DNA from: a virus
Length of the DNA: 64,000 bases
Virus record (IMG/VR): IMGVR_UViG_3300022752_000022
Span: 85,599 to 149,598 of that record
Direction: 5' to 3' (one strand)
How positions within the stretch are numbered: position 1 is the stretch's first letter; each line of letters opens with the position of its first letter. The position numbers and the translations under genes are program-made. The notes beneath the pieces are model-generated. The model made no database searches. It was not told where the DNA came from and saw only the letters and a program-made list of their open reading frames with translations. Below, piece by piece: positions 4,046-24,132 of the stretch.

Positions 4046-4892
4046 CTTAAATCAGGTCATGATTTCCAATCTGATGATGCAGATTGGTCAAAATGGCAAT
4101 CAAGTGGACGAGAATCTGATCCGACATATGATTCTCAATAGTCTACGAATGTATAACGTCAAATTCCGTGAGGAGTTTGGTGAGATTGTCATATGCGCTG
4201 ACGATAAGCAATATTGGCGCAGAGACTTGTTTCCCTATTATAAAGCTAGTCGCAAAAAAGCGAGGGAAGCATCTCCTTTAGATTGGAATCTAATCTTTGA
4301 AACGTTGAACAAAGTCCGTGATGAATTGAAAGAAAACTTTCCTTACAAAGTCATTCAGATTCATAAAGCTGAAGCGGATGATGTCATTGGTACATTGTGC
4401 TATAAGTATGGTGTAGAATTGTCGAGTGAGGGTGTGGAGAAAATTTTGATTTTGTCGAGCGATAAAGATTTTCTCCAGTTGCAAAAGTTTGCAAATGTGT
4501 ATCAGTACAGTACAATGGCCAAGAAATTCCTCAAAGAATCTAGCCCATCAAAATTCTTGCAAGAGCATATTATTCGTGGAGATACTGGTGATGGGATTCC
4601 TAATTTTCTTAGCGGTGATGATTGCTTTGTTACTGAAACTCGGCAGAAACCGATAACAGAGAAAAAGCTAAATACATTCATCGGCAAGAATCCAGAAGAT
4701 TTTTGCGATGAAATCATGCTGAAGCGTTATCGAAGAAACGAATCATTGATTGATTTGTCTAAGGTGCCTGAAGATATTCAATCAAAAGTTTATATCGCTT
4801 ATGATGCGCCAAAGCGTGGTAGGGATAAATTGTTAAACTATTTCATTAAGCATCGGATGAAACTGATGATGGAACACATACAGGAATTCTAA
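4032..4892 (+). CDS. rnh: T4-type RNase H / 5'-3' flap exonuclease
   Basis: MILIDLNQ, YWRRDLFPYYKASR, EADD, SSDKDFLQL, GDTGDGIPN motifs. Confidence 0.95.
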   Translation: MILIDLNQVMISNLMMQIGQNGNQVDENLIRHMILNSLRMYNVKFREEFGEIVICADDKQYWRRDLFPYYKASRKKAREASPLDWNLIFETLNKVRDELKENFPYKVIQIHKAEADDVIGTLCYKYGVELSSEGVEKILILSSDKDFLQLQKFANVYQYSTMAKKFLKESSPSKFLQEHIIRGDTGDGIPNFLSGDDCFVTETRQKPITEKKLNTFIGKNPEDFCDEIMLKRYRRNESLIDLSKVPEDIQSKVYIAYDAPKRGRDKLLNYFIKHRMKLMMEHIQEF

Positions 4893-6741: not shown

Positions 6742-6749
6742 TATAAATA
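6742..6749 (+). promoter_or_regulatory. T4-type late promoter upstream of tRNA cluster
   Basis: TATAAATA immediately before tRNA-Ile. Confidence 0.7.
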
Positions 6750-6752
6750 GTT

Positions 6753-6828
6753 TCCCGGATTAGCTCAGAGGTAGAGCAACGTCTTGATAAGGCGGAGGCG
6801 AATGGATCGTTACCATTATTCGGGACCA
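6753..6828 (+). tRNA. tRNA-Ile(GAT)
   Basis: Acceptor TCCCGGA/TTCGGGA + CCA; D arm AGCTCAGAGGTAGAGC; anticodon loop TTGATAA; atypical T-loop ATCGTTA. Confidence 0.85.
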
Positions 6829-6909
6829 TATTGAAGCACATTTTGATGCCTATAAGCAGTCAGAGTTGATCGCCTGTCTGACGGTGTGAGATGAATGTGC
6901 TTCAATATG
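6827..6909 (+). ncRNA. Stem-bounded structured RNA element A
   Basis: Perfect 16-bp inverted repeat CATATTGAAGCACATT (6827-6842) / AATGTGCTTCAATATG (6894-6909) enclosing hairpin GTCAGA/TCTGAC. Confidence 0.65.
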
Positions 6910-6914
6910 ATAAA

Positions 6915-6973
6915 GGTCGAGGTGCACCAGATCATTTCTAAAGGTCACTGACACATCGGAAAGACGATGGCCA
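6915..6973 (+). ncRNA. Small CCA-terminated structured RNA candidate
   Basis: Hairpin CATCG-GAAAGA-CGATG; stem GATC/GGTC around a TTTCTAA loop; ends in CCA. Confidence 0.4.
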
Positions 6974-7095
6974 TATTGAAGCACATTTAATCGAAAGCAT
7001 CCTCAGAACGGAAGTGACTCGCCGGTGAGTATGCAGGTAGAGAGGTGTAAAAAGCCCCCGCTTGTCACGGTTACCTCAAGTGTGTTTCAATATGG
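6971..7095 (+). ncRNA. Stem-bounded structured RNA element B
   Basis: CCATATTGAAGCACATTT (6971-6988) pairs with AAGTGTGTTTCAATATGG (7078-7095); both deviations are G-U wobbles. Confidence 0.65.
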
Positions 7096-7102
7096 GAATT
7101 AT

Positions 7103-7178
7103 TCCGGTCGAGCAAGCTAGGTGTAGGCAGTGGACTGTTAATCCATGAAGCCTGGTTCGAATCCAGGGACCGGAGCCA
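7103..7178 (+). tRNA. tRNA-Asn(GTT)
   Basis: TCCGGTC/GACCGGA + GCCA; GTGGA-CTGTTAA-TCCAT; T arm CCTGG-TTCGAAT-CCAGG. Confidence 0.93.
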
Positions 7179-7349: not shown

Positions 7350-7424
7350 CTGATCGTGGTGAAATGGAGATCACAGTAGCCTTCTAAGATTCTATTCCGG
7401 GTTCGAATCCTGGCGGTCAGGCCA
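7350..7424 (+). tRNA. tRNA-Arg(TCT)-like with mismatched anticodon stem
   Basis: CTGATCG/CGGTCAG + GCCA; intact D and T arms; anticodon stem GTAGC/GATTC has two mismatches around CTTCTAA. Confidence 0.7.
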
Positions 7425-7438
7425 GTAAGGAGATTAAC

Positions 7439-8002
7439 ATGCCAGCGACATGGCTTATTAGCGATACACATTTCGGGCATGACAAAACCTGTACTGTGTT
7501 CAAAAGAGACGATGGTTACCCTCTTAGGCCCTTTAAAGATGCCGAAGAGATGGACGAGGAAATGATTAAGCGTTGGAACGAACGTGTTGATAAGAATGAC
7601 AAAGTATATCACTTGGGAGACGTAGTCATTGCTCGTAAAAGTCTTGCTACTCTTAGTAGACTTAACGGAGACAAAGTTCTTATTAAAGGTAACCATGATA
7701 TCTTTAAACTTCATGATTACACCGTACACTTTAGAGATATCAGAGGTTATCATGTGATGTCTGGTCTTATTCTTAGTCACGTTCCAGTACATGCTGATTC
7801 CATCGAAAGATTTGGGTGCAATGTTCATGGACATCTTCACCATAGAAGAGTGATGAAAGATAATAAGATTGATCCGAGATACTTTAATGTGAGTGTAGAG
7901 TGTATCGACTTTGCTCCTATTCTTCTTGAAGATCTGAAGAAAAGAATTATGGAGCAGGGTGGGGGTGTCGAGATGAAAAAGTCTCGACACGAAGTAGATT
8001 AG
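7439..8002 (+). CDS. Calcineurin-like metallophosphoesterase
   Basis: SDTHFGH, HLGD, GNHD, SHVP, HGHLH motifs; AAGGAG SD. Confidence 0.9.
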   Translation: MPATWLISDTHFGHDKTCTVFKRDDGYPLRPFKDAEEMDEEMIKRWNERVDKNDKVYHLGDVVIARKSLATLSRLNGDKVLIKGNHDIFKLHDYTVHFRDIRGYHVMSGLILSHVPVHADSIERFGCNVHGHLHHRRVMKDNKIDPRYFNVSVECIDFAPILLEDLKKRIMEQGGGVEMKKSRHEVD

Positions 8003-8077
8003 CTGATGTAGATCAGTGGTAGATCGCTTTCTTGGTAAGAAAGAAGTCATGAGTTCGATTCTGTCAAGAGGTTACCA
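8002..8077 (+). pseudogene. Chimeric pseudo-tRNA-Thr(GGT)
   Basis: Good 5' half (GCTGATG, D arm, CTTTC-TTGGTAA-GAAAG), but the 3' end CTGTCAAGAGGTTACCA pairs with neither its T stem nor its acceptor stem. Confidence 0.7.
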
Positions 8078-8090
8078 AAAAGGAGTTTGT

Positions 8091-8627
8091 ATGAGACTTA
8101 CTGATTTAATTAAAATATATGATAATGTTTTGAGTAAAGACTCTTGCAATAATATCATTGGGGAGTTTGAAGCAAGAAAAGAATTGGTAGATCATCATCA
8201 TAATGATGTTTACAAATTTGATCAATTAAACTTAAATCAGACTGATCTAAAACCTTTAGCGACAATTTTCATAAGGCAAATTATTCCGCTCATTAAATAT
8301 TATTCAGCGGAATTCAATGTTGATCGATTCATTAAAATGAATGCTTTTGAAGATGTTAGAATTAAAAAATACTTGAAGAATTCTGACTATCAATTTAAAA
8401 CACATATCGATAGTGCCGATAAAGAGTCTGCGGTACGATATTTGGTTTTCATTTTGTATTTGAATGATAACAACGGCAACACATTTTTTCCAACACTTGA
8501 TTACTCATGTAGACCAAAACAAGGAAGCATGATTTTGTTTCCACCTTTTTGGATGTATCCACATTCTGGTGTGATACCTACAGATAATGATAAGTATATT
8601 ATGATGAGCGCATTACATCATACATAA
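8091..8627 (+). CDS. 2OG-Fe(II) oxygenase (prolyl-hydroxylase-like)
   Basis: HxD (HID)...ILYLND...G...FPPFWMYPH...KY. Start moved to 8091 because of the AAGGAG SD and because 8016 lies inside the pseudo-tRNA. Confidence 0.88.
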   Translation: MRLTDLIKIYDNVLSKDSCNNIIGEFEARKELVDHHHNDVYKFDQLNLNQTDLKPLATIFIRQIIPLIKYYSAEFNVDRFIKMNAFEDVRIKKYLKNSDYQFKTHIDSADKESAVRYLVFILYLNDNNGNTFFPTLDYSCRPKQGSMILFPPFWMYPHSGVIPTDNDKYIMMSALHHT

Positions 8628-23145: not shown

Positions 23146-23495
23146 GTCAACAAATGGTTCACGATGTAGTAAGGTTTATTCAAGCGTGTGAGCAACTTCG
23201 CACACCTAAAAATATAGAATTGTATGATAAACTAATTCATGAGGAATTTGAAGAATACATAGATGCAAAGAATGACGCAGAGAAATTGGATGCATGTATG
23301 GACATGATTTGGGTGATTATTGGTTATTGTCATATGAAAGGTTGGAATGTAGAACGTGCATGGGAAGAAGTTGCAAGAAGTAATTTAGATAAGATTGATC
23401 CTGATACAGGATATGTTCTAAAAAATTCTGATGGTAAAGTGATGAAACCTAAGCATTGGAAAGCACCTGCACTTGAACAATTTGTTGAAGCATGA
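23142..23495 (+). CDS. MazG-like/PRA-PH nucleotide pyrophosphohydrolase
   Basis: LIHEEFEE...LDACMD...EVARSN..K...DGKVMKP..W. Confidence 0.85.
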   Translation: MSQQMVHDVVRFIQACEQLRTPKNIELYDKLIHEEFEEYIDAKNDAEKLDACMDMIWVIIGYCHMKGWNVERAWEEVARSNLDKIDPDTGYVLKNSDGKVMKPKHWKAPALEQFVEA

Positions 23496-23514
23496 TATAA
23501 TCACTAAATAAAAT

Positions 23515-23864
23515 ATTGTTGTATGAAGTTGAAGGAAACATGTTGCGGACGGCGGTTCAAATCCGCCCAGGTCCACCAAAAGCATGGCAGCGAAAGACGC
23601 CTAACCAGCGACCCTACCTACAAGGGAGAATACGGTGAATGATCAATTGTTGTGGTGACGATTGTATGTGTTCACGCCGCAGTAGGATGCTTTTGATGGG
23701 CCTGTACTGGTTTCGACGGAGCAAAGAGTACGGAAATGGACAACACGACAGGCGAAGGACGTAATCCTAGCAAAACGTTAAACGCAAACGACGAAAGATT
23801 TGCATTAGCCGCCTAAACACGGCTTAGGGTTTCGGTGAGTTTCCTCGTAACAGAATAACTCACC
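23515..23864 (+). ncRNA. ssrA: Circularly permuted (two-piece) tmRNA, tag (A)ANDERFALAA
   Basis: Acceptor piece first: T arm GGCGG-TTCAAAT-CCGCC, then CAGGTCC-ACCA ending 23578. Coding piece starts GGGCCTG..TTTCGAC at 23698 (G3-U pair). Tag ORF 23784-23816. Late-type ACTAAATA at 23503-23510. Confidence 0.92.
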
Positions 23865-23895
23865 ACACACTCACACACATTTAAAGGAGACTATT

Positions 23896-24132
23896 ATGAG
23901 TGATACGGCGTTTGGTATACGATTAGAAATTCTCAAAATGGCAAAAGATATAGTTGATCATGACTATTTTACAATGAGAGATTTTGAACAACAAATTTGG
24001 AATACTAAAGCAGATGATGCTAGAGCAAAAGGCAAAGAAATACCACCATTTACTTTTACACCATATCCATCTGTTGATACTATCATAGCAAAAGCAAAAG
24101 AACTTAATCGTTTTATTAGTGAAAGACAGTGA
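23896..24132 (+). CDS. Conserved T4-like small protein
   Basis: [11 protein letters not shown]...YPS...II.KA..L..F; AAGGAG SD. Confidence 0.8.

What the first reader, a model, noticed from the sequence alone, without database searches (positions are those of the whole stretch)
6827..7095. Two small RNAs sharing one long terminal stem but different cargo, each starting at a CCA end
Seen: elements A (6827-6909) and B (6971-7095) both open with CATATTGAAGCACATT and close with its complement, but enclose unrelated structured interiors of about 51 and 89 nt. In B both departures from perfect complementarity are G-U wobbles on the + strand, which argues for selection on RNA rather than a DNA palindrome. 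Each 5' arm overlaps the CCA of the preceding RNA. Inference: a cassette format in which a conserved dsRNA stem (a processing or protein-loading handle) releases variable small RNAs from the late tRNA transcript.
Basis: partly seen in the sequence, partly recalled or inferred. Interest (0 to 1): 0.78.

Follow-up and report, generated by a model that had tools for sequence, protein, structure and literature searches.

The report
Stalk-and-cargo RNA cassettes in phage tRNA operon
Two small RNA genes between the tRNA genes of this uncultured T4-like phage share one long closing helix that starts on the CCA end of the RNA before it; they belong to a large, phage-only, uncatalogued family in which the same helix holds well over a hundred different folded RNAs whose job is unknown.

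Summary
Elements A (6827-6909) and B (6971-7095) share a 16-18 nt arm and its complement, and enclose unrelated interiors of 51 and 91 nt. No Rfam family matches.

They are members of a large family. In fetched IMG/VR DNA I found 338 elements in 144 loci, giving 243 distinct sequences and about 165 cargo types.

- **RNA-level helix:** it is 19-20 bp long. 14 of 19 pairs show compensatory changes, and wobbles recur at two fixed positions.
- **Strand:** the G-U strand matches the neighbouring tRNA strand 228:13.
- **Anchor:** about 80% begin on an R-CCA end.
- **Not a MITE:** there are no target-site duplications.
- **Phage-only:** the family is absent from GenBank phages and from 185,579 bacterial and archaeal genomes, apart from one mis-binned tRNA-array contig.
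- **Cargo:** cargos A and B have relatives with compensated helices. A close relative lacks exactly "A + the next RNA" (145 nt).

The mechanism is inferred, not shown. I read the stalk as a double-strand processing and stability module read by a host enzyme, most likely RNase III. T5 stable RNAs RNAIII and RNAIV share the architecture.

This scan has already found the same family on other phage DNA at least ten times.

The parts
6754..6828 (+). tRNA-Ile(GAU); its discriminator A6825 and C6826-C6827-A6828 form the foot of cassette A
   Evidence: ARAGORN; Rfam RF00005, 47.9 bits
6827..6843 (+). 5' arm of cassette A stalk
   Evidence: Inverted repeat I3; RNAalifold pairs columns 1-17 with 67-83; model R1, 53.7 bits
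6844..6892 (+). Cargo A: two nested helices ending in a 7-nt loop
   Evidence: Relatives L155:299-381(-) and L163:1152-1234(+) keep the fold, with 3 pairs changed on both sides
6893..6909 (+). 3' arm of cassette A stalk
6910..6973 (+). Inter-cassette RNA ('mid'): not a tRNA; ends in a 5-bp hairpin, then G, then CCA; the CCA is the foot of cassette B
   Evidence: Fold z = -2.2. Relative at L135:5430-5498. It is one of 76 distinct non-tRNA units found between adjacent cassettes; most of those listed end hairpin-N-CCA.
6971..6988 (+). 5' arm of cassette B stalk
   Evidence: R1, 52.6 bits
6989..7077 (+). Cargo B: two-hairpin structured interior
   Evidence: Relative L123:5537-5659 differs in cargo by paired changes that keep one helix (CGG/CCG becomes CAAA/UUUG)
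7078..7095 (+). 3' arm of cassette B stalk, with G-U partners at 7080 and 7085
7103..7178 (+). tRNA-Asn(GUU), starting 8 nt after cassette B; its RNase P site would set the 3' side of B
   Evidence: ARAGORN and Rfam. Family-wide, the next tRNA starts at -1 or +5 to +9 from the stalk end.

Best explanation
SHOWN. A and B are two members of a large, phage-only family of RNA cassettes that sit inside tRNA operons of uncultured T4-like phages. Each cassette is a 19-20 bp RNA helix. Its 5' strand begins with the discriminator and CCA of the RNA just upstream, and its 3' strand ends in the complementary UGG(U). The helix encloses one of many unrelated, independently conserved structured cargos. Cassettes alternate with tRNAs or with other small RNAs that end in hairpin-N-CCA. 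They are gained, lost and re-sorted as modules. INFERRED. The whole array is one precursor transcript. The two-turn stalk is read as double-stranded RNA by a host enzyme, most likely RNase III. That enzyme cuts inside the stalk and separates the upstream CCA-ended RNA, the cargo and the downstream RNA. Host 3' trimming back to CCA and RNase P at the next tRNA then finish the neighbours. The cargo is left as a small stable RNA closed by the upper stalk. By analogy with the annotated ends of T5 RNAIII, that would be about 6832-6906 for A and 6977-7091 for B. What the cargos do is not known. The confidence given is for the whole statement. The shown part alone I would put near 0.9, and the RNase III step alone near 0.45.
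For: Helix under RNA-level selection: 95.9% of cells are paired, 14 of 19 pairs changed on both sides, and 0 of 500 shuffles reach this; slid controls give 30-48% (pair table). Strand: the G-U-defined strand equals the strand of the nearest tRNA in 228 cases against 13. Model R1 scores the + strand above the - strand, 52.6 against 30.3 bits for B. CCA anchor: 107 elements overlap an ARAGORN tRNA end by exactly 2 nt. About 80% are preceded by R-C and followed by G-U. Stalks with diverged sequence still start on RCCA. The arms close round the cargo rather than round the neighbouring RNA, 63:3. Cargo is functional RNA: there are 165 clusters; A and B relatives have compensated helices; GNRA loops number 17 against 3-6 in shuffles. 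Modularity: a 145-nt indel of A+mid is bounded by the 18-nt repeat, and 24 of 38 cargo clusters occur in more than one flank context. For a double-strand reader: helix length is sharply bounded at about 19-20 bp. The CC/GG foot flanked by A-U pairs fits the WSSW preference between E. coli RNase III cuts (PMC6212723). A U-G next to U-A at positions 14-15 resembles the UA/UG distal box (PMC1540722). Three cargo-less stalks exist. Precedent: T5 RNAIII (L126:4285-4390) lies in a stalk that starts on the CCA of RNAI and ends at tRNA-His, and its annotated ends leave a 2-nt 3' overhang. T5 RNAIV lies inside a stalk of about 21 bp.
Against: The host is unknown. The match to E. coli RNase III rules is only partial in every register I tried: a G-C pair falls on a proximal-box position where A-U is preferred (my reading). 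The T5 RNAIII 3' end coincides with the tRNA-His RNase P site, so its overhang need not come from RNase III. RNase P plus RNase E and exonucleases could release the cassettes without RNase III (PMC5291269). Stalk conservation is partly imposed by the search patterns I used. The R1 model does not detect the T5 RNAs.
Confidence: 0.55

Rival explanations
1. Terminal clamp only. The stalk is not cut. The cassette is released whole by the ordinary tRNA enzymes: RNase E or exonucleases at or just after the upstream CCA, and RNase P at the downstream tRNA. The stalk only protects both ends from exonucleases.
For: Exact phasing on the CCA. The next tRNA starts at -1 (30 cases) or +5 to +9 (53 cases). 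The A/U-rich sequence right after CCA fits the RNase E (A/G)N|AU rule one nt after CCA, and E. coli RNase E cuts at or 1-3 nt after CCA ahead of a hairpin (PMC5291269).
Against: Six to ten bp would suffice as a clamp, yet the helix is held at 19-20 bp. Pairing of the upstream RNA's own R-C-C is under selection, with compensatory changes at positions -1 and 0; this serves only the precursor. The putative RNase E site is base-paired. T5 RNAIII and RNAIV ends lie inside their stalks.
Confidence: 0.22
2. Protein-loading handle. The constant stalk, with its two fixed wobbles, is the binding site of one specific phage or host protein. The cargos are its variable working parts (guides, decoys or sponges).
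For: The commonest stalk allele is nearly invariant in sequence across more than 140 loci. Wobbles are preferred at positions 9 (54%) and 14 (79%) over the Watson-Crick alternatives. There are many cargos on one handle.
Against: Stalks with strongly diverged sequence occur in the same arrays and keep only the helix, the RCCA foot and an A/U-rich start. The complete 149.6-kb genome has no dsRBD, Ro/TROVE, RNase III, PF04308 or RNA ligase. No neighbour gene is shared by more than 26 of 143 loci. Complementarity of the cargos to the phage genome does not exceed chance.
Confidence: 0.1
3. DNA-level element: a MITE-like transposon or a recombination hairpin whose inverted repeats act in DNA. On this reading the RNA features are incidental.
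For: Terminal inverted repeats. Presence/absence polymorphism between near-identical phages. The same cargo occurs in different contexts. HNH homing endonuclease genes lie in 14 of 143 arrays.
Against: Flanks show direct repeats no more often than shuffled flank pairings at any offset or length tested. The orientation bias with tRNAs is 228:13. G-U wobbles fall on one strand only. The interiors are unrelated. The indel is explained by recombination between the 18-nt direct repeats.
Confidence: 0.04
4. Pure spacer. The stalk is a processing signal for the tRNAs and the interiors are functionless filler.
For: Three cargo-less stalks exist. There is great cargo diversity.
Against: Cargo helices are kept by compensatory changes in A, B and other clusters. 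GNRA loops are enriched. Identical cargos are kept across different contexts.
Confidence: 0.06

Closest known systems
Phage T5 stable RNAs RNAIII and RNAIV (GenBank NC_005859, annotated 'stable RNA with unknown functions')
   Same: Small RNAs inside a phage tRNA cluster, closed by a long terminal helix. The RNAIII stalk (L126:4379-4396 with 4281-4298, - strand) begins on the CCA of the preceding CCA-ended RNAI and ends at the next tRNA, exactly as here. It even shares a six-base core with the stalk here.
   Different: No detectable sequence or model homology (R1 gives no hit). Each T5 stalk has its own sequence. T5 RNAs were never described as a constant-stalk, swappable-cargo family. T5 is a siphovirus of E. 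coli.
RNase III processing stalks: leader-trailer helices round 16S/23S rRNA and phage T7 early-transcript sites (R1.1 and others)
   Same: Two-turn double-stranded RNA helices in a polycistronic precursor that are repeated with a similar sequence within one phage. The WSSW-like foot and a UA/UG-like pair are present.
   Different: T7 sites carry no cargo. rRNA stalks enclose the product RNA but are not anchored on a CCA end. Cleavage here is not shown, and the fit to E. coli rules is partial.
Phage T4 species 1 and 2 RNAs (rnaC, rnaD)
   Same: Stable RNAs of unknown function encoded after a tRNA in a T4-type tRNA cluster. They resemble the 'mid' class (tRNA-like T arm or CC end) rather than the cassettes.
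   Different: No long closing stalk and no sequence similarity.
Bacterial Y RNAs (YrlA) bound by Ro
   Same: A terminal helix formed by the 5' and 3' ends plus a variable, sometimes tRNA-like module. 28 of 243 cargos carry a T-loop-like motif.
   Different: No Rfam match. There is no Ro/TROVE gene in the complete genome. The stalk has no Ro-type bulged helix.
tRNA-punctuated release of neighbours (mitochondrial transcripts; MHV68 tRNA-miRNA units)
   Same: A non-tRNA RNA directly abuts tRNA ends, so tRNA processing enzymes define its termini.
   Different: Those systems are eukaryotic or organellar, with no constant stalk pairing the CCA. The resemblance is recalled from general knowledge and was not tested.

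Membership tests
Any Rfam 15 family | Covariance-model match at or near the gathering score | tested here: not met
   No hit over 6827-7095 at E <= 10. In 14 + 6 related loci only tRNA, tmRNA, GOLLD and a group I intron were found.
tRNA | Cloverleaf recognised by ARAGORN or RF00005 | tested here: not met
   A, mid and B are not called.
MITE / small transposon | Terminal inverted repeats | tested here: met
   16-18 nt arms
MITE / small transposon | Target-site duplication | tested here: not met
   In 254 elements, direct-repeat flanks are no more frequent than in shuffled flank pairings at every offset and length tested.
MITE / small transposon | Copies share one interior; insertion orientation is neutral | tested here: not met
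   165 unrelated cargo clusters; 228:13 co-orientation with tRNAs.
RNase III processing stalk | Regular double-stranded RNA helix of about two turns | tested here: met
   Positions -2 to 16 are paired in 84-100% of 243 sequences, falling to 56% and 41% beyond that.
RNase III processing stalk | Sequence preferences of the E. coli enzyme (WSSW between cuts; proximal and distal boxes) | tested here: inconclusive
   The A-C-C-A foot and the U-G/U-A pair at positions 14-15 fit. A G-C pair sits at a disfavoured proximal-box position in the best register. The scoring matrix was not available.
RNase III processing stalk | Staggered cleavage leaving 2-nt 3' overhangs, dependent on rnc | not testable with these tools
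The only indirect evidence is the annotated ends of T5 RNAIII.
T5 RNAIII-type stable RNA | Stalk-closed RNA between a CCA-ended RNA and a tRNA, with the stalk starting on that CCA | tested here: met
   for the window; for T5.
T5 RNAIII-type stable RNA | Sequence or model homology | tested here: not met
   R1 with filters off gives no hit on RNAIII or RNAIV at E <= 10.
Y RNA / Ro RNP | Ro (TROVE) partner and a YrlA-type model match | tested here: not met

The most novel reading that the evidence does not exclude
The stalk is a universal expression and loading socket, and the more than 160 cargos are a phage 'toolbox' of trans-acting RNAs that phages trade by recombination at the arms. Candidate roles are decoys or sponges for host RNA-binding defence or RNA-processing proteins, tRNA-elbow mimics, or small self-assembling RNAs. 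On this reading it would be an RNA counterpart of integron-like cassette exchange.
Probability: 0.12. Interest if true: 0.9.

Novelty: new variant of a known kind. Interest (0 to 1): 0.7.

Why it matters
Phage tRNA clusters have been known for about fifty years to encode 'stable RNAs of unknown function' (T4 species 1 and 2; T5 RNAI-IV).

This family shows that, in a large group of uncultured T4-like phages, such RNAs follow one modular grammar. A CCA-ended RNA is followed by a constant two-turn stalk holding a swappable structured cargo.

That grammar gives three things:

- **A handle for discovery.** The stalk alone finds hundreds of new structured RNAs.
- **A testable processing model.**
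- **A tractable laboratory stand-in.** T5 RNAIII and RNAIV in E. coli could serve for asking what these RNAs do.

If the cargos prove to act on host defence or RNA metabolism, the family would be a new layer of phage-host conflict.

Tried and rejected
- **GenBank phages:** BLAST with cassette A gave only chance hits. The wider tRNA region matched only through its tRNAs.
- **Bacterial and archaeal genomes:** a scan of 185,579 species genomes gave 2 hits. One is a mis-binned phage tRNA-array contig (L236). The other is an unrelated perfect-palindrome hairpin with no tRNA nearby in the 8-kb locus (L237).
- **Antisense targets:** the longest complementarity of cargo A, mid and cargo B to the phage genome is 11-12 nt, the same as for shuffles.
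- **Anticodon-loop decoy idea:** 7-nt U33/R37 loops in cargos are mostly T-loops, so there is no general signal.
- **Phage-encoded partner:** the complete genome has no RNase III, dsRBD, TROVE, Rnl1, Rnl2, CCA-adding enzyme or PF04308. The Rnl1 search rang in no control genome, so that one negative is weak.
- **Neighbour-gene association:** the best families (PF04308 RNase H-like, metallophosphoesterase) occur in only 26 of 143 loci.
- **Alternative pairing:** the 3' arm of A with the 5' arm of B, enclosing 'mid', is possible in this window. Family-wide it is disfavoured 63:3.
- **Coding potential:** there is no plausible + strand ORF.
- **Hammerhead or kink-turn reading** of the commonest 65-nt cargo was considered by eye and dropped, because the core positions do not fit.
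- **Promoter/terminator scan:** nothing above shuffled expectation.
- **Literature:** no paper prints the stalk sequence. The supplements of the IMG/VR structured-RNA catalogue (PMC10690425) are not held, so overlap with its 8,495 unnamed candidates cannot be excluded.

Full report
**Setting**

The window is the last 64 kb of a complete 149.6-kb IMG/VR virus record with direct terminal repeats. It encodes T4-type baseplate proteins. It carries a tRNA block: Ile 6754, Asn 7103, Pro 7186, Thr 7269, Arg 7350, a weak tRNA at 8002 and Arg 8832. It also carries a two-piece beta-type tmRNA at about 23471-23907.

**Observation**

- A pairs 16/16.
- B has two G-U pairs on the + strand, at 6981-7085 and 6986-7080.
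- Both elements fold far better than shuffles, with z about -5.
- A begins on C75-A76 of tRNA-Ile.
- B begins on the CCA that ends a 64-nt non-tRNA segment, called 'mid' here.
- Nothing in Rfam 15 matches at E <= 10.

**A large family**

A two-arm pattern for one length class finds 117 stretches. In the 230 loci fetched (2.08 Mb) I found 338 elements in 144 loci. These give 243 distinct sequences of 55-155 nt, with a median of 91 nt.

The carriers appear to be T4-like. The gp23 capsid family is present in 3 of 5 large records, and the two without it are 30-50% complete. The stalk is absent from 50,697 GenBank phage records at BLAST sensitivity. Among 185,579 species genomes it occurs only in a 1.5-kb, 9-tRNA contig binned with a freshwater Planktophila MAG. 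It is therefore not a copy of a host element.

**It is an RNA helix**

- On a 56-sequence alignment, 95.9% of cells pair. 14 of 19 pairs show changes on both sides, and 0 of 500 shuffles reach any measure. Sliding the partner drops pairing to 30-48%.
- On 243 sequences the helix runs from the discriminator (position -2) to position 16, then decays.
- Two positions prefer wobbles. Position 9 is G-U 54%, G-C 25% and A-U 20%. Position 14 is U-G 79%, C-G 13% and U-A 7%.
- The strand on which these are G-U, not A-C, is the strand of the nearest tRNA in 228 cases against 13.
- The arms close round the cargo rather than round the neighbouring RNA, 63:3 with 16 ties.
- Flanks show direct repeats no more often than shuffled flank pairings, so there is no sign of target-site duplication.
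- A caveat: my detection patterns constrain positions 0-14, so sequence invariance there is partly imposed.
- A structure-only scan downstream of every tRNA end found 81 canonical stalks. It also found about 20 clearly diverged stalks, for example L054:4304-4372, L235:1812-1882 and L164:3047-3174. These keep the RCCA foot, an A/U-rich start and a helix of 16-23 bp.
- What is conserved is therefore the helix and its anchor. The window's arm is simply the commonest allele.

**Anchoring**

In 107 elements the stalk overlaps an ARAGORN tRNA end by exactly two bases. About 80% of all elements are preceded by R-C and followed by G-U, so the discriminator and CCA of the upstream RNA pair with UGG(U). 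The next tRNA starts at -1 (30 cases) or at +5 to +9 (53 cases).

Between adjacent cassettes lie 76 distinct non-tRNA units, most of which end in hairpin-N-CCA. The window's 'mid' is one of these, with a relative in L135.

**Cargo**

- The 243 elements fall into 165 BLAST-level cargo clusters.
- Cargo A has relatives in L155 and L163, with three compensated pairs.
- Cargo B's relative in L123 differs by paired changes in one helix, plus one wobble-to-Watson-Crick change in the arm.
- GNRA tetraloops are enriched, 17 against 3-6 in shuffles.
- 28 cargos carry a T-loop-like motif.

**Modularity**

L123 comes from a phage whose neighbouring protein is 99% identical. It has tRNA-Ile followed directly by B. 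The window has an extra 145 nt (A + mid) bounded by the 18-nt direct repeat. In addition, 24 of 38 cargo clusters with at least 3 instances occur in more than one flank context.

**Mechanism (inferred)**

The complete phage genome has no RNase III, dsRBD, Ro, RNA ligase, CCA-adding enzyme or PF04308. No neighbour gene is common to the family. A host enzyme is therefore the likely reader.

Several points favour a double-strand reader such as RNase III:
- The helix is held at about two turns, far more than an end-clamp needs.
- Pairing of the upstream RNA's own CCA is selected, which matters only in the precursor.
- The A-CC-A foot fits the WSSW preference between in vivo E. coli RNase III cuts (PMC6212723).
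- A U-G/U-A pair at positions 14-15 resembles the UA/UG distal box, and lies 10-11 bp above the point that corresponds to the 5' end of T5 RNAIII (PMC1540722).
- Three bare stalks without cargo exist.

Three points weigh against it:
- The fit to E. coli rules is partial.
- The host is unknown.
- RNase E cuts at or 1-3 nt after CCA ahead of hairpins in E. coli (PMC5291269). The sequence right after the CCA matches its (A/G)N|AU rule, although that site is base-paired here.

**T5 precedent**

GenBank annotates T5 RNAIII and RNAIV as stable RNAs of unknown function. The RNAIII stalk begins on the CCA of RNAI and ends at tRNA-His. Its annotated ends lie six rungs up the stalk and leave a 2-nt 3' overhang. 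RNAIV is excised from the middle of a stalk of about 21 bp. This is the same architecture, with experimental standing. However, model R1 does not detect these RNAs, and the RNAIII 3' end coincides with an RNase P site.

**Relation to earlier notes of this scan**

The same family has been reported on other phage DNA at least ten times, with similar conclusions. I re-derived the main claims independently. The parts of this work that those summaries do not spell out are:
- the own-versus-alternative closure test;
- the test for target-site duplications;
- the structure-only scan showing sequence-diverged stalks;
- the precise indel against L123;
- the end geometry of T5 RNAIII and RNAIV;
- the negative partner-protein and antisense searches.

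Noticed in passing
window 23471-23907: Phage-encoded two-piece (permuted) beta-type tmRNA. Its intervening segment (about 23580-23695) is closed by a 7-bp stem that starts directly after the acceptor-piece CCA. This is the same layout as the cassettes but with a different sequence. L167 carries a similar tmRNA next to cassettes.
   Followed up: partly
window 8002-8072: Weak tRNA match (RF00005, 32.8 bits) that ARAGORN does not call, overlapped by ORFs 7439-8002 and 8016-8627. There are also two tRNA-Arg(UCU) genes, at 7350 and 8832.
   Followed up: no
window 6866-6872: The 7-nt loop of cargo A shares its first five bases, including the GAU triplet, with the anticodon loop of the adjacent tRNA-Ile(GAU). 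No family-wide anticodon-mimic signal was found, so this is probably chance.
   Followed up: partly
window 6742-6749: A T4 late-promoter-like TATAAATA box ends 4 nt before tRNA-Ile. It is not conserved in the close relative L123.
   Followed up: partly
L020:7275-7745 and 25 other loci: A PF04308 'RNase H-like' gene of about 156 aa sits inside the tRNA arrays of 26 of 143 cassette-bearing loci. It is absent from the window's complete genome.
   Followed up: partly
window 7439-8002: A metallophosphoesterase (PHROG 547) lies directly after the tRNA block. The same family flanks the arrays in 26 of 143 loci.
   Followed up: no
L191:9154-9615; L063:13185-13378: A GOLLD RNA (207 bits) and a group I intron lie in the same tRNA arrays as the cassettes.
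   Followed up: no
L124:4660-4860: In an 84%-related phage without canonical cassettes, a 200-nt G+C-rich, apparently structured segment follows tRNA-Gly. It was not identified.
   Followed up: no
144 cassette-bearing loci: The tRNAs next to cassettes are not a random sample. Upstream they are mostly Glu, Leu, Ile, Lys and Thr, and never Met, Arg, Ser or Ala. Downstream they are mostly Ala and Asp. This may be shared synteny rather than specificity.
   Followed up: partly
L023, L027, L038, L082, L098, L106 (records up to 345 kb): One 83-nt cassette in very large T4-like phages is not preceded by CCA and is followed by a T-run. It is a variant without the CCA anchor.
   Followed up: no
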